Positions 1,629-64,000 are shown, counted from the stretch's first letter. The stretch is DNA of 64,000 nt from a virus (IMGVR_UViG_3300005439_000017:20020-84019), one strand, 5' to 3'. A program made the numbers and translations. Notes: generated by a model not told the origin, from the sequence alone.

Positions 1629-4600
1629 TTATTTACAGTGATCTATTAGGGTTTGGATATCATCATCCGATACATCTTTATTAGTATCAGAAATTGTATT
1701 ATCTAAAGTCTCAACTTGTTTAGTTACAGGAGATTTAGATTCATCCACTTTAACATTGTTACTAACTACTATGGATTGTAAATTGTCGATATTAATATCA
1801 TATTCATTACCTACTAACTTTCCAACCTCTTCATAGGTAAAAGTATTCTTATCTAGTAATCTGAATAATTTATTATCAAACTTAACCATAAACTTAGGAA
1901 GCTTCTCAGTAAATGTTTCTCCCTCTTGTTGATAGGTTACAGTGTCTATAACATTACTACCATCTTTGACTACTAAGTAGTGGTTTTTATGTTGTATTAC
2001 AAACTTAGGATCAACTTCTTTAACAAATCCTGAATTAGGATTATTTCTGATAAATTGCTCTACAAACCTATTTATTTTCTGCAAATATAAGGAATCTTGC
2101 TCTAATTTACCAAAAATATCTTCCTGAAAATCAATTAATCCTATATCTCTCAGATATTCTGTAGGAATAAAATCAGCAAATGAGTAGAGAGATTTACCAA
2201 CCCCGGATACAGCGAATGAATAAACGACAAGATCTTTGCCTATGCTAGCCACTTCGGTATTATCGTCTTTAAGAAGCCTATCAAAATCCTGAATAATTTC
2301 ATTTCTTTCATCCTTAGTATATCCTACTGTACCAGAGAATGTTATATAATTGACATCTTTATTACTCTGATAGTCAGGAGTATGCAGAAGTTTAATAAAC
2401 AGATTATCTTCATAGTCTTTATTACCTTTAAGTTTATTTAGCCTCTTTGCTAGTGTTTTCTCACCTATAAGCAACTCTTTTAGGTTTTTAGTATTATCCT
2501 TCAGCCAATCAAAATCTGTTGTTATAAACGAAATTAAACTGTTATTCAAAGCACTTATATTTTTATAATAGAAAGTGTCTGATGCATCTCCATTATCTTT
2601 AAGCTGTCTAAGAAAATTGTCAAATATTCTATTACCATATGGTATGTATCTGGCAGTATTATCTCTGGTAACTCTAAGCACATCAGTAAATTCTTTAACC
2701 ATTGGGTAGGTACTCTCTTCTGAGAATACTGAAGCTGTGCTAACCATCTTGTTTTCAATACTCTGATCTACCTTATCAAGAAATTGATTAAGTTGGGCTA
2801 AAGTAGGAAGAGATCTTATAGCGTCTGCTCTGGTTGCACTTACAGCAAGACCTAAACTATTAGCATACTTTCTATACTGTTTGTAGGTCTGATACACTAA
2901 TTTTTGATAATCGTTAGTAGTATCTTTTAACTCTCTTCTTAAAGTTTCAGTAGACAAATCTACAACCTTATTTTCCAACTTATCTATATTGTATTTAGCT
3001 ATTATTCTGGTCTCTGCTTCCTTTTCATTGTAAATGGTAAGAAATCTTACATAATCTTCCAATATAGGCTGAGAAATGAAATAAGAAGCTGTTTCAAGGC
3101 TATATCCAGCCCTAACTATCATAGCAGCAACACCAAATGTTTCAAAATTGATATTAAGATCATCTGCTACAGGATCTTTAGCATTATCAACAAAAGCAGC
3201 AAGGAATTGTCCAAGATTATCAGATATAAGCGTTTTGAGATCAAGCGCATACATTCCTGATAGATTAGTCTCAGACTTACCATCAAATGTAATAGTTCCA
3301 TTGTTTAAATAAAGATTACTTTCTTGGGCAAGAGCATGATTAGTATTCTGATTAGCAGCCAATCCAATTAGACCAGCACCAGCCTGGTTCCTTTTTCTGA
3401 ACTCTTCTTGACTAATAGGATCTATATAGATTAGTGGGGCTTTGCTCTTATATTTCCTAACTTCACCAGCAAGCTTTTGTAACTCAGCAAATCCCCCTTC
3501 TTTAACTATTTCATTATAATTAGCAGGATTAGTAAGAATAGATTGTATAATATCTAGAATACCATTATCTCTTTCTTCACGAGTATGAGATTCGGCCTCT
3601 GGATTGAATTCAATCTTAGTTATATCATTTCCCTGTTTCTTGAACTCCGGAAGCATGATATAGAGTTTATCAATATCGAAATCAGATCCCATCTGAGATA
3701 CAATTTCAGGGGGTAATACTACCATACTACCAGATTCTTGTGGTAAGAATCCAACAACTTTAAGAGGTATCATAGAGTGTTTTCCTTCTGTAGGAATCCT
3801 ATAACCAACCATTTTAAGAAGTTCTGGATCAATATCTGCTATATCTTTTGGTTGAACTACTTCTTTAGTCCACCAAGGTAATAGACATTCAGCATATTCT
3901 ATCACACCTTCTTTGTTCCTAATATATTTAAGATCCTGAAATCCGAATTGTGATACCTGAACAGCTCCAATGCCTCTAGTCTTCTGAGACATTACCCCAT
4001 TCTTAAAGATAGAAGTGAGAATAGGTTCAAATCTAGTAAGTAGGTTAAAGGGTAGGCTTATTGTCTGGCTACCATCTTTCTTAGTAATTAGTTTTAAACC
4101 TTGCTCATAATTATCATCAAGATTTCTGCTGTCAATCTCATCTCTGAGCATATCTACTAAAGTGTTTATATCAGAGAATTCTTCTACTGTAGCACTAAGA
4201 TCTTCTCTAACATTATCCACAATTAGTTTTTGATAAAGGTCTTTAATTTCTCTACCTGTTAGTTCTTTATCTTTAAGCTTATAAATAGTATCATTTTTAA
4301 CATTCTCCAATATCAATCTTCTAATCTGAGTACCAAACAATATGTGAGCATCTATATGCTTCTCAGGAACGTTCTGCACCCATCTCCAATAACTGTTGGA
4401 CAGAGTTATATATTTTACATCCTTGTTATTAAGGAAATCTTCTTGGTTATTAGAATTAATCTCACCTGCCTTAACAGCACTATCAAATACAGCCTCATCA
4501 ATACCATTCTCTTCCATAGTTCTTCTTAGCTTATCCAATTTAGGATTATCTTTAGTAAGAGCAGGAATAAGAGGTACTGCGGAATATTTAATTTGTGTAG

Positions 4601-47579: not shown

Positions 47580-47656
47580 TGGTTGCGGAGGCTGGATTCG
47601 AACCAGCGCTTTCTGGGAAATGAACCCAGCGAGATGGGCCTCTTCTCTACTCCGCG
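47580..47656 (-). tRNA. trnfM: Initiator tRNA-fMet (CAT), CCA encoded
   Basis: C1:A72 mismatch, three G-C pairs in the anticodon stem and loop TTCATTT. Confidence 0.93.
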
Positions 47657-55645: not shown

Positions 55646-56039
55646 GGGCCCGCATGGAATTGACAGGTAGGTTCAGCATTGTAACTAACAGCGATAGAAT
55701 GGTATTATACTATCTAAAAAATGTATACCAAAAGAAAACGACAACAACAAAACAATTTCTGCCGAGTCTAGGAACTTCGCAGAACAAGTTGAATCGAAAA
55801 TTGTAGCACTGTTTCCTTCTGTTAAAGAAGAATTAGCAGTAGCCGCATAATGCATGAGATAAGAGGAGATAACTAGCCCTCAATTGTATCAAATGAATTA
55901 TTGAGCTAGGCAATTTTAATAGTTTGTTTATTCTACAAAAATAAACTGGTGGAGAGAGTCTTCCAGACTCCCTAAATAAGCTGTTTTAATTAGTTACATA
56001 GCACTATTCTGGACGTGGGTTCGACACCCACCGGGTCCA
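55646..56039 (+). ncRNA. ssrA: tmRNA
   Basis: Acceptor GGGCCCG/CGGGTCC-A with G3-U wobble, 5' GGAATTGACAG, T-arm GTGGG-TTCGACA-CCCAC, and an internal tag frame ending LAVAA-stop (55848-55850). Confidence 0.93.
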
Positions 56040-56069
56040 CAATAAAATCTTTCATAAATAAATTAAAAC

Positions 56070-58377: not shown

Positions 58378-58767
58378 ATGAAACAACTGTTAATAATTTT
58401 GTTAAGTGGTATATCAATAACAGTACAATCACAAAACTTACAAATAGCTCAAAAAACTAAAAATGGTATAGTCTATAACTACTCAAAAGAAAAGTTGATA
58501 GAAGCTACGAAAACAGCTAATAATAGCATTAGTATAGATAGGATAGCTTACAAAGATGTTCACATTACTAATACTACTATTCCTTTTTTAGTATTTGAAA
58601 AGGAAACATTTGACACATATTCTGAAAAGATGTATATTCCACTAATTGAAACAGCTAATGGATATGAACTCGAAGAAAGTTGGTCCCCCAAGTACTATCC
58701 TGATAAGTATACTGTGTATTCAGGTATGTTTTCTGTTATTTTCTATGATAAATTAACCCAAAAATGA
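58378..58767 (+). CDS. Secreted hypothetical protein
   Basis: Signal peptide MKQLLIILLSGISITVQS-Q. Confidence 0.6.
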   Translation: MKQLLIILLSGISITVQSQNLQIAQKTKNGIVYNYSKEKLIEATKTANNSISIDRIAYKDVHITNTTIPFLVFEKETFDTYSEKMYIPLIETANGYELEESWSPKYYPDKYTVYSGMFSVIFYDKLTQK

Positions 58768-58823
58768 TATTAGCAATTTTAATCATAGTAATAATTATTT
58801 TACTGTGGAAATAAGCAAAATAT

Positions 58824-58899
58824 TAGTGTAGAGGACAGAAGTTCGAATCTTCTACTTATCATGAGATAGGTTCTTCTAGTGGTTAGGAAGGCTACACTA
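58824..58899 (+). ncRNA. Circularly permuted tRNA-like RNA (YrlA/Y-RNA-like module)
   Basis: Order is stem TAGTGTAG, AGGAC, T-arm AGAAG-TTCGAAT-CTTCT, acceptor-like ACTTATC-ATGA-GATAGGT, D-arm TTCT-AGTGGTTA-GGAA, then stem CTACACTA. Confidence 0.75.
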
Positions 58900-58902
58900 T
58901 TC

Positions 58903-58976
58903 GGGCCCATAGCTCATTCGGTTAGAGCATCTGACTCATAATCAGGGGGTGCTTGGTTCGATCCCAAGTGGGCCCA
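58903..58976 (+). tRNA. tRNA-Ile2 (CAT, lysidine) or elongator tRNA-Met
   Basis: GGGCCCA/TGGGCCC-A, TCTGA-CTCATAA-TCAGG and CTTGG-TTCGATC-CCAAG. Confidence 0.9.
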
Positions 58977-58990
58977 CAAATAAATTTAAA

Positions 58991-60446: not shown

Positions 60447-60758
60447 ATGAATATATTTAAAAGAGTAAAAACACTAGAATATAACGAAAATAGGTTAAGA
60501 AATATTATAGATATTCTTGAAAGGCAAGTTTTTGAACTTAAAAATCCCGCTAAATTTAAAGTAGGAGAAAAGGTATTAGTTACCAGCGATGTTACAACAT
60601 ATAATAATGTAAGAGATGAATGCATAGTAGTAGATTTTAGACTTACTAGAAATATATACAACTCAGAAACATATAGATTTTACAGATTATATACTTTGTT
60701 TAATCTACGACAAAATAGAATATTACAAGAAATCGATGAAAGTTTTATTAATGTCTAA
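60447..60758 (+). CDS. Hypothetical protein (coiled coil plus SH3-like)
   Basis: NPAKFKVGEKVLV motif. Confidence 0.55.
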   Translation: MNIFKRVKTLEYNENRLRNIIDILERQVFELKNPAKFKVGEKVLVTSDVTTYNNVRDECIVVDFRLTRNIYNSETYRFYRLYTLFNLRQNRILQEIDESFINV

Positions 60759-60885
60759 AAATTTGAAACAAGTAATTATTCTAACATTAACAATAGCTTT
60801 ATTGAGCAATTGCTCAAAAGTATCACATACAAAATACAATAATTTTAAAAAAACAAAATCAACTTGTAAAAATCAAAAATTCTAA
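60751..60885 (+). CDS. Small basic lipoprotein (44 aa)
   Basis: MSKNLKQVIILTLTIALLSN-C, overlapping both neighbours. Confidence 0.45.
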   Translation: MSKNLKQVIILTLTIALLSNCSKVSHTKYNNFKKTKSTCKNQKF

Positions 60886-61277
60886 TGAACACATTTTTAA
60901 ACATCTATAGCGATCTATATTGGATTACTAGACTAGATTCACTAAGAACATTTGCTATTGCAATTACTGCAATTTTCACATTTACTATACTTGTATATTT
61001 TATTTCTCAAGCAGTTGAAAATAATAGTTACAAGGATTTTACTTGTAAATGGTTTTACAGATTATGTCTAGCTATTTTAATTATTTTTGCTCCCGCTACG
61101 ATATTATTACCCACAGAAAGAGAGACTTTTTTAATACTGGCTGGAGGTAAAACTATTGAATTTGCACAACAAGATACTTCCTTGCAAAAGATACCGGCTC
61201 AAACAACAGCTATTGTATCTAAATTCTTAGAAGAGCAACTAAAAGAAGTAGATAAAAAACAAGAAGACAATGAGTAA
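60885..61277 (+). CDS. Membrane protein
   Basis: Two TM segments and LLPTERETFLILAGG motif. Confidence 0.6.
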   Translation: MNTFLNIYSDLYWITRLDSLRTFAIAITAIFTFTILVYFISQAVENNSYKDFTCKWFYRLCLAILIIFAPATILLPTERETFLILAGGKTIEFAQQDTSLQKIPAQTTAIVSKFLEEQLKEVDKKQEDNE

Positions 61278-61330
61278 ACATGAATATGTATTTACTCAAG
61301 GTAAATATACAAATACTAATTTTTCATATC

Positions 61331-62140
61331 ATGAAGAAAGCCTTAGTAAAAAACCGAAGAACTACCCAAAAGAACCAAATATCAAAAGTACAATCACAAG
61401 AGAAGGAAGAAGAATTAACCACAAAACCGGTATATCTTTCGTTTGAACAAGTGTTTGGAAATCCTATAACAAATTATAGCAATGGGATAGCTAATGGGCA
61501 TCTATTTGCATTAGCAAATATAAAAGGTGATATTAAAGTAAAGTGCTGCACTTGTAAAGACTTTATTCAGGACTATTTCTGGTCTAGTTATACTGGAAAC
61601 GATGTTAACCAACAATATGGATATTCTTGTAAAGCAGAATCTATACAAGATAACTATATTATCTATTTAGCATTTTCTTTAGGCATGGGGTATGTAGATG
61701 GGAAAAATAATCATAAAGGAATATTTTCAATTCCGACTAATTGGACAAAGAATCTTGAACTTTTTATATATTTATTATCCAGCGATTTAGGATTATCATG
61801 TCCAACAGGATTAAGGCTAGAAGACGGTAATTATACTATTCAAATACAGAAAGATTGGACAGAAAAACCATACTTGTTGAGTCTATTAACATATTGTATT
61901 AGAATAGGTTGTTATACTAGCTATTATGAGTTTCTGGAGAGAGAATACTATCAACTAACAAATCCATTTGTACTTATTAATAATGATAATACAAGTAAAT
62001 GGGATATTGTTAGAACAAAATTAAACAAACTAATTCAATTAAAACAAAACAAACAAAAACTACCTGATCAAAAGTGGACAGATTATACAACACAAGGTAC
62101 TGCTCATAATAGTTCAGGTATAATTTCTTACAATTTATGA
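61331..62140 (+). CDS. Hypothetical protein with CCTCKDFIQD motif
   Basis: Probable start MKKALVK at 61331. Function not assigned. Confidence 0.6.
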   Translation: MKKALVKNRRTTQKNQISKVQSQEKEEELTTKPVYLSFEQVFGNPITNYSNGIANGHLFALANIKGDIKVKCCTCKDFIQDYFWSSYTGNDVNQQYGYSCKAESIQDNYIIYLAFSLGMGYVDGKNNHKGIFSIPTNWTKNLELFIYLLSSDLGLSCPTGLRLEDGNYTIQIQKDWTEKPYLLSLLTYCIRIGCYTSYYEFLEREYYQLTNPFVLINNDNTSKWDIVRTKLNKLIQLKQNKQKLPDQKWTDYTTQGTAHNSSGIISYNL

Positions 62141-62388
62141 TTAATATACCATTTAGTTCTGAAAGAGTCAGAACATTACCACAGGGCTTTACAACAAGCT
62201 GTAGTCCTATTGGATTCGATGAACAAGGAAATCCTATATATCATCCAAACAGAAGAGTAAGAAGATCTCACATCTATTCCAAATTATTGAGAAGAGAATC
62301 GAGAAAATTGCAAAGAAAGCAAACCATCATTGGCACAGATGCTAATGGAAAAAGATTCAAGAAAGTTATAATTCATAATTTGTCCTAG
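62137..62388 (+). CDS. Small basic hypothetical protein
   Basis: HPNRRVRR motif. Confidence 0.55.
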   Translation: MINIPFSSERVRTLPQGFTTSCSPIGFDEQGNPIYHPNRRVRRSHIYSKLLRRESRKLQRKQTIIGTDANGKRFKKVIIHNLS

Positions 62389-62389
62389 T

Positions 62390-62620
62390 ATGAGAGGTAA
62401 AAAACTATCTTGGCAAGAATTTAGAGATCTAAAAACTACAACAATTCCTAACAATGAAGCCAAAGAAAGGAAACTTAGGGCAGATATCCAAAGAGCTAAA
62501 GTACTTGTTATACGTTCTAATTTTGGATCTGTAGCTGAATTTAAGAGAAAAGCACCTAGTTTTTCTAATAGATTTTTATTACAAGCTTTTAGAACCTATA
62601 AGAATAGTAAACTACTATAA
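62390..62620 (+). CDS. Small basic hypothetical protein
   Basis: 76-aa ORF. Confidence 0.55.
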   Translation: MRGKKLSWQEFRDLKTTTIPNNEAKERKLRADIQRAKVLVIRSNFGSVAEFKRKAPSFSNRFLLQAFRTYKNSKLL

Positions 62621-62629
62621 TCCATACAT

Positions 62630-62789
62630 CCTCTGGAATGGACAAATAGTAGAGTGTTGCGAAATTGCTCTAATTTACGACTTATTATTTATAATAATTA
62701 GTAAATTATCAAAAGTAGAACTATTCCACTATTCTAATTAGTTTGTAATCTTATATAGACTAATGGCGGTTCGAATCCGCCCCAGAGGA
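62630..62789 (+). ncRNA. 160-nt tRNA-ended RNA (acceptor stem plus T-arm enclosing four hairpins)
   Basis: CCTCTGG/CCAGAGG-A acceptor and GGCGG-TTCGAAT-CCGCC T-arm, followed by CAA like the other plus-strand tRNA genes. Confidence 0.7.
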
Positions 62790-62854
62790 CAAGAATCTCA
62801 AGATTCAAATAAAGAGGACTTTTCATGGTTTTTAACTTCATATAAAACCATATT

Positions 62855-62888
62855 AGGGTAGAGGAGATAGCATCTTCTACCCTTTTTT
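62855..62888 (+). terminator. Intrinsic terminator
   Basis: AGGGTAGA...TCTACCCT-TTTTT. Confidence 0.75.
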
Positions 62889-62906
62889 AACTTTTTAATT
62901 AAAATT

Positions 62907-63404
62907 ATGAAGACATTAAAAATAGATGAAAATAAAGCTAAGGAACTTTATCCAATAGCTTCTAAAGAATTTAAGATTGTGTTGGAGACAACATTTGGAG
63001 TAGATTTCTTTAAAAAAAGATCTCCTCTTGATATTGACTCTCTAGTAAAGCTAGTAGACTATACGTTAGAAACGTATCATATTAATATATATGATCTTAT
63101 ATTAGATGAGGTAGATACAAAAAACGAAGATTTTAGAAGAGCAAATGCCACAATTATTCTTAAGTATTTAGCAAAAGCTTATAATGAAGAAACAGTATTA
63201 AATTGGAGAAATACTAATGAATACAAATATTTTCCATATTTACATTTCGTTAGTGGTTCTTGCTCGGTTCTCTTCGACGGTTGGTGTTTCTGTCTGCATT
63301 GTCCGGTTGGTTTTTACTATAAGAACGAAAAATTAGCAAGGCAAGCATATAACAATTTTAAAATTTACTTTGAAGATTTTTGGGGAGCTAAAGCTGACCA
63401 ATAA
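62907..63404 (+). CDS. Small early protein, putative DGR target (paralog 3)
   Basis: LKYLAKAYNE...NWRNTNEYKYFPYL...VR...YKNEKLARQAYNNFKIYFEDF. Confidence 0.65.
   Translation: MKTLKIDENKAKELYPIASKEFKIVLETTFGVDFFKKRSPLDIDSLVKLVDYTLETYHINIYDLILDEVDTKNEDFRRANATIILKYLAKAYNEETVLNWRNTNEYKYFPYLHFVSGSCSVLFDGWCFCLHCPVGFYYKNEKLARQAYNNFKIYFEDFWGAKADQ
63255..63317 (+). repeat. Putative DGR variable region VR3 (divergent template)
   Basis: 3 A in 63 nt, mostly NNY codons, ends GGTTGGTTTTTAC. It does not align cleanly with VR1/VR2. Confidence 0.55.
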
Positions 63405-63426
63405 AGTTAAATTATAAGACAGACAA

Positions 63427-63597
63427 ATGAAAAAAATTTACATGATATTAATGTTAACTATCCTAATTTTTGGATTAGGAATGGTTTTAGTATGTATACA
63501 AGATAAACAAATGGGAATGATCAATTGGTTAGCTTTGATTCTATTTGAATTCGGACTACAAGGATTACTTGAATTACTTTTTAGAAAAATAAAATAA
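63427..63597 (+). CDS. Small two-TM protein (56 aa)
   Basis: MKKIYMILMLTILIFGLGMVLV..., below the track cutoff. Confidence 0.5.
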   Translation: MKKIYMILMLTILIFGLGMVLVCIQDKQMGMINWLALILFEFGLQGLLELLFRKIK

Positions 63598-63605
63598 ATA
63601 ATAAA

Positions 63606-63824
63606 ATGGTGGATGATATACTTATATGTCAAGATAAATTTAAAGACTTATCTTTGAGAGATTGGTTTGCTGGGTTAGCTTTACAAGCACTATTATCTAA
63701 TACTTATATAACTAAACTAGTAGATGAAGCAAGTGAAGATGATGAGATAGTGGATTTTACAGAACATATTACTGAATTAGCTTATACAACAGCTGATAAC
63801 ATGTTAAAACAAAAAGAAAAATGA
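63606..63824 (+). CDS. Widespread small phage protein (LRDxFA family)
   Basis: LSLRDWFAGLALQALL...AY.TADNML motif. Confidence 0.7.
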   Translation: MVDDILICQDKFKDLSLRDWFAGLALQALLSNTYITKLVDEASEDDEIVDFTEHITELAYTTADNMLKQKEK

Positions 63825-63994
63825 CAATACTTTTATCTTTACTAGTATTAGCAGGTCTAATAATAGTAACTGTAGCAGCATTGGCTGCAAGAGAAGAAGA
63901 ATCAAATGTAACATATTCAGAACATAAACTGAATATTACACTATACGATAAATACAAAAATTGGGATTCTAAACATTGCCCTTATTATGAGTGA
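63821..63994 (+). CDS. Small membrane-anchored protein (57 aa)
   Basis: MTILLSLLVLAGLIIVTVAALAAREEE, with ATGA overlap. Confidence 0.5.
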   Translation: MTILLSLLVLAGLIIVTVAALAAREEESNVTYSEHKLNITLYDKYKNWDSKHCPYYE

Positions 63995-64000
63995 TATAAC

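What the first reader, a model, noticed from the sequence alone, without database searches (positions are those of the whole stretch)
62630..62789. 160-nt RNA with tRNA acceptor stem and perfect T-arm but four internal hairpins
Seen: CCTCTGG/CCAGAGG-A plus GGCGG-TTCGAAT-CCGCC enclose hairpins AGAGT/GCTCT, TAATTTAC/GTAAATTA with TTATTAT/ATAATAA, TAGAA/TTCTA, and an 11-bp ATTAGTTTGTA/TATAGACTAAT stacked on the T-arm. It ends in A-CAA exactly like the tmRNA, tRNA-Ile2 and tRNA-Arg genes, and a terminator follows. TGGAAT could also pair with ATTCCA in the third loop. There is no D-loop GG and no assignable anticodon. Inference: a tRNA-like-domain ncRNA processed by RNase P/Z and the CCA enzyme, comparable in architecture to a tag-less mini-tmRNA.
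Basis: partly seen in the sequence, partly recalled or inferred. Interest (0 to 1): 0.75.

Follow-up and report, generated by a model that had tools for sequence, protein, structure and literature searches.

The report
Orphan tRNA-shaped RNA gene in crAss-like phage
A crAss-like phage carries a 160-base gene for an RNA that has the top half of a transfer RNA but no arm able to read codons. It is one more, sequence-unique example of the phage "tRNA look-alike" RNAs whose job has been unknown since they were first seen in phages T4 and T5.

Summary
At 62630-62789 (+) a perfect 7-bp acceptor stem (5 G-C pairs) encloses a canonical T-arm and about 128 nt of strongly folding sequence (MFE -46.4 kcal/mol, z = -5.5). 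It lies in a 28%-GC, ORF-free gap 9 nt after a stop codon and 66 nt before the only intrinsic terminator in 3.5 kb. Such a top half appeared in 0 of 300 composition-matched random genomes.

ARAGORN and Rfam call nothing there. The favoured fold is a four-way junction: acceptor, AA, a 98-nt arm, an 11-bp hairpin with a 6-nt loop abutting the T-arm. That leaves no usable anticodon.

A cryptic CUA anticodon loop can be drawn, but it costs at least 10.6 kcal/mol and the phage shows no TAG recoding.

The layout resembles T4 species 1 RNA (rnaC) but lacks its kissing loops, and a covariance model shows only the generic tRNA frame in common. No homologue was found anywhere, so covariation could not be tested.

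Verdict: a real, probably RNase P-processed, non-decoding tRNA-like RNA of unknown function. This scan has noted many phage tRNA look-alikes before on other DNA.

The parts
62618..62620 (+). TAA stop of the upstream 76-aa ORF (62390-62620); the RNA starts 9 nt later, so it is probably co-transcribed with it
62630..62636 (+). Acceptor stem, 5' strand CCUCUGG (C1-G72 ... G7-C66); nucleotide -1 is U
62637..62643 (+). AAUGGAC: linker plus a D-loop-like GG (RNA positions 11-12) with no D stem. Same register as CAUGGA of the phage tmRNA. GGAAUGGA is also the D-loop word of phage tRNA-Leu genes.
62639..62736 (+). Long arm (RNA 10-107): basal helix UGGA/UCUA plus AUAGU/ACUAU, then an A-U-rich extended hairpin. 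An alternative fold only 3 kcal/mol above the MFE uses the tandem copy ACUAUUCCA, caps a side hairpin with a GCGA (GNRA) tetraloop and leaves an 8-nt linker.
62737..62764 (+). 11-bp hairpin with 6-nt loop AUCUUA, directly abutting the T-arm (anticodon- or variable-arm position); pair probabilities 0.90-1.0
62765..62781 (+). Canonical T-arm GGCGG-UUCGAAU-CCGCC
62782..62789 (+). Acceptor stem 3' strand CCAGAGG plus discriminator A
62790..62792 (+). CAA trailer (no encoded CCA), identical to the trailers of the tmRNA, tRNA-Ile2 and tRNA-Arg genes of the same strand
62793..62806 (+). Small trailer hairpin GAAUC-UCAA-GAUUC
62855..62889 (+). Intrinsic terminator (11-bp stem, 5 G-C pairs, then T run); the only one found in 60500-64000

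Best explanation
This is a gene for a non-decoding, tRNA-shaped small RNA of a crAss-like phage.

Shown by the sequence:
- It has a 7-bp acceptor stem stacked on a canonical T-arm.
- It has a stem-less D-loop-like AAUGGA whose GG could dock on the T-loop as in tmRNA.
- It has an A discriminator.
- Two extended arms stand where the D and anticodon arms would be: a 98-nt arm and an 11-bp hairpin with a 6-nt loop.
- The gene lies at the 3' end of a run of small early-region ORFs on the + strand, just before a terminator.

Inferred:
- The RNA is cut out of the operon transcript by host RNase P at C1.
- Its 3' end is trimmed after A73, and it receives CCA from the host enzyme, as the phage's CCA-less tRNA and tmRNA genes with the same A-CAA ending must.
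- Its 11-bp arm is too long and its loop too short to present an anticodon, so it cannot read codons.

Most likely role (inference, weakest step): it works as a tRNA mimic that occupies or recruits a tRNA-binding protein early in infection. Candidates are a host tRNA-targeting defence nuclease, a processing or modification enzyme, or a phage partner protein. The same has been proposed, and never proven, for T4 species 1 RNA, T5 RNA1 and YrlA-type RNAs.
For: Sequence and fold:
- All stems are present.
- MFE -46.4 kcal/mol, z = -5.5; the same fold holds in context, z = -5.7.
- A strict top half occurred in 0 of 300 simulated genomes; the real genome has only tRNA-Ile2 and this element.
- In the 84-kb record, five T-arms pass the strict test (all Watson-Crick stem pairs, at least 3 G-C), and all lie in tRNA genes, the tmRNA or this element. 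The weaker T-arm-like motifs elsewhere have no acceptor partner.

Context:
- A-CAA ending shared with three genuine RNA genes.
- No ORF of 60 codons or more; correct strand; terminator 66 nt downstream.
- GG in the tmRNA register.

Non-decoding:
- ARAGORN and Rfam are silent.
- The 11-bp hairpin has pair probabilities 0.90-1.0.
- A covariance model of the element aligns ordinary tRNAs arm for arm: acceptor, D position = long arm, anticodon position = 11-bp hairpin, T-arm.

Precedent:
- T4 rnaC has the same layout of acceptor, long arm, 10-bp hairpin with 6-nt loop next to a UUCGAAU T-arm.
- rnaC is still 'of yet unknown function' (PMC9697503).
Against: - No homologue was found, so there is no conservation or covariation support. 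Searches covered INPHARED phages, IMG/VR, JGI metagenomes, GTDB genomes and neighbour-gene synteny.
- There are no expression data.
- The interior is A-U-rich, and several folds lie within 3 kcal/mol of each other.
- There is no loop-loop pairing like that of rnaC.
- The decoy role is pure inference: no partner gene was found, and there is no TROVE/Ro60 in the 67%-complete record.
Confidence: 0.55

Rival explanations
1. It is a cis-acting processing or stability signal rather than a trans-acting RNA. A tRNA-like module at the end of the early operon would recruit RNase P to define the 3' end of the upstream mRNA. This is tRNA 'punctuation', as with MALAT1-mascRNA or plant mitochondrial t-elements. 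The released RNA would be a by-product.
For: - It starts 9 nt after a stop codon and sits just before the terminator.
- No promoter of its own is evident.
- RNase P is known to process non-tRNA substrates, including phage RNAs and polycistronic mRNAs (PMC11143913).
Against: A minimal acceptor/T-arm would be enough for that job. The two long, very stable extra arms, about 125 nt in all, are then unexplained. The terminator already defines a 3' end 66 nt downstream.
Confidence: 0.12
2. It is a decaying or expanded tRNA gene, that is, a pseudogene. A former tRNA would have kept its top half while insertions and drift destroyed the D and anticodon arms, leaving no function.
For: - It is an orphan sequence with no relatives.
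- GGAAUGGA resembles the D-loop of phage tRNA-Leu genes.
- After a 65-nt deletion ARAGORN can force a cloverleaf.
Against: - The acceptor (7 of 7 Watson-Crick pairs) and T-arm are flawless in a 28%-GC background where drift would erode G-C pairs.
- The interior is far more stable than shuffles (z = -5.5).
- The A-CAA context is intact.
- Phage genomes rarely keep 160 nt of dead sequence.
Confidence: 0.12
3. It is a derivative of the tmRNA tRNA-like domain (a tag-less mini-tmRNA) that binds SmpB or otherwise modulates trans-translation. The TLD-only RNA of mycobacteriophage DS6A is thought to work this way.
For: - No D stem, and GG in the tmRNA register.
- The 5' word UGGAAUGGACA matches the tmRNA's UGGAAUUGACA at 10 of 11 positions.
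- CACUAUUCU and UAAUUAGUU are shared with the 3' strand of the phage tmRNA's P2 helix; word-sharing score 33 against 12 +/- 10, p about 0.03.
- Hudson et al. 2014 report a phage TLD-only RNA and its inhibition of tmRNA (PMC4131195).
Against: - U3-A70 instead of G3:U70.
- A 28-nt hairpin separates the P2a-like strand from the T-arm, where tmRNA has GGAC.
- The shared words are in a different order.
- The overall alignment to the tmRNA is not significant, and the Rfam tmRNA model gives no hit at E<=10.
- The phage already encodes a full tmRNA that such an RNA would also inhibit.
Confidence: 0.1
4. It is a cryptic amber-suppressor tRNA(CUA). A 65-nt insertion (RNA 34-98) would sit in the 5' strand of the anticodon stem. 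The RNA would refold or be spliced to expose the loop UUCUAAU (RNA 103-109).
For: - ARAGORN calls a 96-nt tRNA(CUA) with U33 and A37 once positions 34-98 are deleted.
- Shuffled interiors reach that score in only 3-5% of cases.
- crAss-like phages often carry suppressor tRNAs, and divergent undetected ones have been postulated (PMC7886860).
Against: - That fold costs 10.6-17.5 kcal/mol relative to the MFE, and its pairs have probability about 0.
- The competing 11-bp hairpin would persist even after removal of the insert.
- No bacterial intron type is known at this position.
- Reading TAG through gains no more coding coverage than reading TGA through, no long late gene is split by TAG, and TAG ends 4 of 53 long ORFs.
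Confidence: 0.04
5. There is no RNA gene here. The feature is either a chance structure or a phage attachment site carrying the 3' part of a host tRNA gene.
For: The region is A-T-rich, so hairpins are common. With G.U pairs allowed, loose acceptor matches arise in 63% of simulated genomes.
Against: - The strict version occurred in 0 of 300 simulations.
- The 5' acceptor strand is present, which an attP fragment would not need.
- No genome of 185,579 species holds the 25-nt 3' end.
- 120 looser matches were all non-tRNA.
Confidence: 0.04

Closest known systems
Phage T4 species 1 RNA (rnaC, 139 nt; NC_000866 70908-71046)
   Same: - Phage-encoded, about 140-160 nt, lying among or near tRNA genes.
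- Acceptor-like stem, one long arm, then a 10-11-bp hairpin with a 6-nt loop next to a canonical UUCGAAU T-arm.
- No anticodon.
- No Rfam family.
- Function unknown (PMC9697503).
   Different: - rnaC has two loops that are perfectly complementary over 6 nt (UUGACG and CGUCAA). This RNA has no loop-loop complementarity of 5 nt or more.
- The rnaC acceptor has two U.U mismatches and an 8-nt linker before the hairpin.
- No sequence homology: model R1 scores rnaC at 12.5 bits, below ordinary tRNAs at 14-18 bits.
Phage T5 RNA1 (NC_005859 30501-30644, 'tRNA-like stable RNA with unknown functions') and the Leu-tRNA-shaped anticodon-less phage RNAs noted earlier in this scan
   Same: - tRNA top half with a folded insert where decoding parts should be, and a hairpin just before the T-arm.
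- A73-type discriminator.
- The GGAAU(U)GG word of Leu-type D-loops.
   Different: - T5 RNA1 keeps a Leu-type D-arm. Here there is no D stem, and the GGAAUGGA word overlaps the acceptor stem.
- R1 scores T5 RNA1 at only 8.3 bits.
tmRNA tRNA-like domain, including the TLD-only RNA of mycobacteriophage DS6A (Hudson, Lau and Williams 2014, PMC4131195)
   Same: - Acceptor and T-arm with a stem-less D-loop analogue whose GG is at positions 11-12.
- No anticodon arm.
- Gene ends A-CAA like the phage's own tmRNA.
- A helix starts right after the D-loop analogue.
   Different: - No G3:U70.
- No tag reading frame or pseudoknots.
- A local 11-bp hairpin abuts the T-arm instead of P2a/GGAC.
- Not matched by Rfam RF00023.
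YrlA-type bacterial and phage Y RNAs
   Same: A non-decoding RNA with a tRNA-mimicking module, found in phages, including crAss-like phages according to earlier notes of this scan.
   Different: - In YrlA the RNA ends form the Ro-binding stem and the tRNA-like part is internal. Here the ends form the acceptor stem.
- No Ro60/TROVE gene in the 84-kb record.
- No Rfam match.

Membership tests
Canonical tRNA (Rfam RF00005 / ARAGORN) | 7-bp acceptor stem, discriminator base, and T-arm with a UUCRANY loop | tested here: met
Canonical tRNA (Rfam RF00005 / ARAGORN) | D-arm with a 3-4-bp stem, and a 5-bp anticodon stem with a 7-nt loop (U33, purine 37) | tested here: not met
   - No call by ARAGORN, even with intron options.
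- No RF00005 hit at E<=10.
- The arm at the anticodon position is 11 bp with a 6-nt loop.
- The cryptic UUCUAAU loop needs at least 10.6 kcal/mol more.
tmRNA / TLD-only tmRNA derivative | G3:U70 alanine identity pair | tested here: not met
   The pair is U3-A70. The phage's real tmRNA has G3:U70.
tmRNA / TLD-only tmRNA derivative | Stem-less D-loop analogue with GG a few nucleotides after the acceptor stem | tested here: met
   AAUGGA here against CAUGGA in the tmRNA, both at positions 8-13
tmRNA / TLD-only tmRNA derivative | P2a helix formed by the strand after the D-loop and the strand immediately 5' of the T-arm (GGAC); match to RF00023 | tested here: not met
   A 28-nt local hairpin abuts the T-arm. 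There is no RF00023 hit at E<=10. Only weak word sharing with the P2 strand was seen.
T4 rnaC (species 1 RNA) type | Acceptor stem, long arm, and a roughly 10-bp hairpin next to a canonical T-arm | tested here: met
T4 rnaC (species 1 RNA) type | Two hairpin loops complementary to each other (kissing pair) | tested here: not met
   T4 has UUGACG and CGUCAA. Here no complementarity of 5 nt or more exists between unpaired regions.
T4 rnaC (species 1 RNA) type | Detectable sequence or structure homology | tested here: not met
   R1 scores rnaC at 12.5 bits and ordinary tRNAs at 14-18 bits. blastn against phages finds nothing.
T5 RNA1 / Leu-tRNA-shaped anticodon-less phage RNAs | Leu-type D-arm (stem plus GGAAUUGGUAGAC-like loop) retained with the acceptor and T-arm | tested here: not met
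   There is no D stem. Only the word GGAAUGGA is present, shifted 6 nt into the acceptor. R1 scores T5 RNA1 at 8.3 bits.
YrlA / Y RNA with Ro60 | Ro60 (TROVE) gene in the genome, and a match to RF02553 | tested here: not met
   No PF05731 match in the 84-kb record, which is 67% complete, so absence is not proven. No Rfam hit.
Phage suppressor tRNA (CUA) | Stable anticodon stem-loop presenting CUA, and in-frame TAG codons in phage genes | tested here: not met
   The pairs of that stem have probability about 0. There is no TAG-specific gain in coding coverage.
Any of the above | Transcription, RNase P cleavage, CCA addition, aminoacylation | not testable with these tools
   No expression data are available for this metagenomic contig.

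The most novel reading that the evidence does not exclude
The RNA is a purpose-built tRNA decoy of an early phage operon. It would be processed and CCA-tailed like a tRNA. It would display, on an over-long arm, a loop (A-AUCUUA-U, containing U-CUU-A as in the anticodon loop of tRNA-Lys(CUU)). It would combine that with a tmRNA-style elbow to trap a host tRNA-directed defence enzyme, such as an anticodon nuclease, or another tRNA-binding factor. This would give a testable function to the 50-year-old class of phage 'stable tRNA-like RNAs'.
Probability: 0.12. Interest if true: 0.75.

Novelty: new variant of a known kind. Interest (0 to 1): 0.4.

Why it matters
Phage tRNA-like stable RNAs (T4 RNA C, T5 RNA1) have had no known function for about five decades. 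Notes from this scan suggest that such look-alikes are common in crAss-like and other phages.

This example shows that the tRNA top half can be combined with a tmRNA-style, stem-less D-loop and two unrelated long arms, in a phage that also carries its own tmRNA. That supports the idea that the acceptor/T-arm module is a reusable 'processing and stability handle' for varied RNA cargo.

By itself it is a single, unconserved instance without expression data, so it adds a data point rather than resolving the question.

Tried and rejected
1. Ordinary tRNA or tRNA with an intron. ARAGORN with default, intron and relaxed settings gave nothing credible. A scan of 1,820 single-deletion variants gave a tRNA(CUA) call only after removing positions 34-98. 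I rejected this reading on energy grounds and because the phage shows no TAG recoding.

2. Rfam at gathering and at E<=10: no tRNA, tmRNA, YrlA or other family.

3. Homologue hunting for covariation found nothing.
- blastn and megablast against phages.
- Four DNA patterns on IMG/VR. The 28 hits were tandem ordinary tRNAs.
- JGI metagenomes.
- GTDB genomes.
- Neighbour proteins P0001 and P0002 and an alignment of P0002 relatives.
- The three closest IMG/VR relatives by capsid protein (78, 65 and 44% identity), which are fragments without the early region.
- The early region of cr108_1.
- 151 Bacteroidota genomes searched with model R1.

4. A paralogue at 58702-58861, with the same 135-nt spacing between an acceptor-like 7-mer and a T-arm. 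It is not alignable and lies partly in an ORF, so it is probably chance.

5. Derivation from the phage tmRNA: only marginal statistics.

6. attP or a host tRNA fragment: no host tRNA has this 3' end.

7. An antisense target in the phage genome: only 11-14-mers, close to the number expected by chance.

8. Kissing loops like those of rnaC: absent.

9. Functional context: Pfam and PHROGs give no informative annotation for the neighbouring genes.

Full report
**Setting.** The window is the last 64 kb of an 84-kb IMG/VR virus record judged 67% complete. The finding lies in the + strand 'early' region (about 52-64 kb, 28-30% G+C). That region also holds a full tmRNA (55646-56042, Rfam 63.4 bits), tRNA-Ile2(CAU) and tRNA-Arg(UCU).

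**Observation.**
- The 160-nt stretch folds to -46.4 kcal/mol, against -26.7 +/- 3.6 for dinucleotide shuffles (z = -5.5).
- The identical fold is recovered inside a 311-nt context (z = -5.7).
- A loose scan (G.U pairs allowed) is not discriminating: 63% of simulated genomes gave some 'T-arm plus acceptor'.
- A scan matching the quality actually seen is discriminating. It requires a UUCRANN loop, five Watson-Crick T-stem pairs with at least 3 G-C, and seven Watson-Crick acceptor pairs with at least 4 G-C within 260 nt. It gave 0 hits in 300 simulated genomes, and 0.03 strict T-arms per genome. The real genome has five strict T-arms and two full hits, tRNA-Ile2 and this element.
- The region has no ORF worth the name. 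It begins 9 nt after the stop codon of a 76-aa ORF. It is followed after 66 nt by the only intrinsic terminator found between 60500 and 64000.
- The discriminator A is followed by CAA, exactly as in the tmRNA, tRNA-Ile2 and tRNA-Arg genes on the same strand.

**Anatomy.** The minimum-energy fold is a four-way junction:
- acceptor (RNA 1-7 with 153-159);
- A8 A9;
- a long arm (10-107);
- an 11-bp hairpin with loop AUCUUA (108-135);
- the T-arm (136-152);
- A160.

The acceptor, T-arm, 11-bp hairpin and the core of the long arm have pair probabilities of 0.9-1.0.

A fold only 3 kcal/mol above the optimum uses the tandem repeat ACUAUUCCA/ACUAUUCUA in its other register. It caps a side hairpin with a GCGA tetraloop and leaves an 8-nt linker before the 11-bp hairpin. 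The interior therefore cannot be fixed from one sequence.

A covariance model of the element (R1) aligns ordinary tRNAs onto it arm for arm, so its topology is that of a cloverleaf. The D position carries about 90 extra nucleotides, and the anticodon position is a closed, over-long helix with no variable loop.

AAUGGA follows the acceptor stem with GG at positions 11-12, exactly as CAUGGA does in the phage's tmRNA. GGAAUGGA is also the D-loop word of several phage tRNA-Leu genes.

**Is it a disguised tRNA?** ARAGORN finds nothing with default, intron or relaxed settings, and Rfam finds nothing at E<=10.

I generated all 1,820 single-deletion variants. ARAGORN then called a 96-nt tRNA with loop UUCUAAU (anticodon CUA, with U33 and A37) once RNA 34-98 was removed. 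Shuffled interiors reach the same score in 3-5% of trials, so this is mildly unusual. It is worth noting because crAss-like phages often carry suppressor tRNAs (PMC7886860).

I reject the suppressor reading for two reasons:
- That fold costs 10.6-17.5 kcal/mol, its pairs have probability about 0, and the competing 11-bp hairpin would survive removal of the insert.
- The genome shows no TAG-specific recoding. Reading TAG through raises ORF coverage from 0.908 to 0.944, against 0.940 for TGA. No long late gene is split.

I rate it at about 4%.

**Relatives.** None were found.
- blastn and megablast against 50,697 phage records.
- Four patterns on IMG/VR.
- A pattern on JGI metagenomes.
- The 25-nt 3' end on 185,579 species genomes.
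- Model R1 on 151 Bacteroidota genomes.
- Synteny through the neighbouring genes.

A looser pattern (T-loop plus CCAGAGGA) hit at least 120 genomic places, none of them a tRNA. The acceptor is therefore not borrowed from a common host tRNA, and an attP reading has no support.

No covariation test was possible, and this is the main weakness of the case.

**Comparison with known RNAs.**
- T4 species 1 RNA (rnaC) has strikingly the same plan: acceptor-like stem, one long arm, then a 10-bp hairpin with a 6-nt loop next to a CCGGG-UUCGAAU-CCCGG T-arm. It is still of unknown function (PMC9697503).
- The two rnaC loops are complementary over 6 nt (UUGACG and CGUCAA). This RNA has no loop-loop complementarity of 5 nt or more.
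- With filters off, R1 scores rnaC at 12.5 bits and T5 RNA1 at 8.3 bits, below ordinary tRNAs at 14-18 bits. Only the generic tRNA frame is shared.
- Neither T4 rnaC nor T5 RNA1 has an Rfam family.
- Against the phage's own tmRNA there are hints of kinship. The 5' word matches at 10 of 11 positions. The 9-mers CACUAUUCU and UAAUUAGUU lie in the tmRNA's P2 3' strand according to the Rfam alignment. The word-sharing score is 33 against 12 +/- 10 for random genome segments, p about 0.03.
- The kinship is not established. Those 9-mers are in a different order, G3:U70 is missing, and a hairpin replaces the GGAC junction.
- A TLD-only tmRNA derivative is known in mycobacteriophage DS6A and is thought to titrate SmpB (PMC4131195). 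I keep this as a 10% rival.
- No Ro60/TROVE gene is present in the record, which argues against a YrlA-type Y RNA.

**Mechanism.**
- Shown: a flawless acceptor/T-arm minihelix with a possible elbow GG, U at -1, an A discriminator and no encoded CCA, placed at an operon end before a terminator.
- Inferred from established tRNA biology: RNase P cuts at C1, the 3' end is trimmed, and CCA is added, as must happen for the neighbouring CCA-less tRNA and tmRNA genes.
- Inferred from geometry: it cannot decode, because the helix is 11 bp and the loop 6 nt.
- Speculative: it acts by mimicry on a tRNA-binding protein. The loop contains U-CUU-A, reminiscent of a tRNA-Lys anticodon loop, which suggests a nuclease-decoy experiment but proves nothing.

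**Verdict.** This is a real, orphan, non-decoding tRNA-like RNA gene. It is a new variant within the known but unexplained kind of phage tRNA-like stable RNAs. Earlier notes of this scan report many such look-alikes in crAss-like and other phages on other DNA, so the kind is not new to the scan. This copy differs by its tmRNA-style 5' side and its lack of relatives. Interest is moderate.

Noticed in passing
window 55646-56042 (+): A full-length tmRNA gene in a crAss-like phage (Rfam RF00023, 63.4 bits). It has G3:U70 and ends A-CAA without an encoded CCA. ARAGORN does not call it. The 2021 crAss-like survey I searched (PMC7886860) contains no mention of tmRNA.
   Followed up: partly
window 58837-58871 and 58702-58708: Another orphan T-arm (AGAAG-TTCGAAT-CTTCT). 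The two 160-nt stretches do not align and the upstream part lies in an ORF, so this is probably chance.
   Followed up: partly
window 47580-47656 (-): The 'tRNA-Met' here has C1 opposite A72, the signature of a bacterial initiator tRNA-fMet. The second CAU tRNA (58903-58977) looks like tRNA-Ile2.
   Followed up: no
window 62720-62736: An imperfect tandem repeat, ACUAUUCCA then ACUAUUCUA. It lets the 5' segment UGGA...AUAGU pair in two registers 8 nt apart, within 3 kcal/mol of each other. This could be a conformational switch.
   Followed up: partly
window 61280-62140 (+), protein P0002: A 286-aa early protein with a conserved Cys/Tyr-rich core (CKD[YF]FQDYFW, VNQQYGYSC, LLSLLTYCIRI). It has no Pfam or PHROG family. 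Its only two relatives (42-44% identity) come from Logan assemblies.
   Followed up: partly
L077:1840-1880 (+), Lishizhenia sp. MAG, Bacteroidota: A perfect T-arm GCGAG-TTCAAGT-CTCGC followed by CCAGAGG-A, with no 5' acceptor partner within 300 nt and no ARAGORN call. It may be a tRNA 3' fragment or att-site remnant.
   Followed up: no
window 2097-2110 and 62665-62678: An exact 14-nt repeat, TTGCTCTAATTTAC, shared between the long arm of the RNA and the giant virion RNA polymerase gene region. This is slightly more than expected by chance (about 0.1 expected).
   Followed up: no
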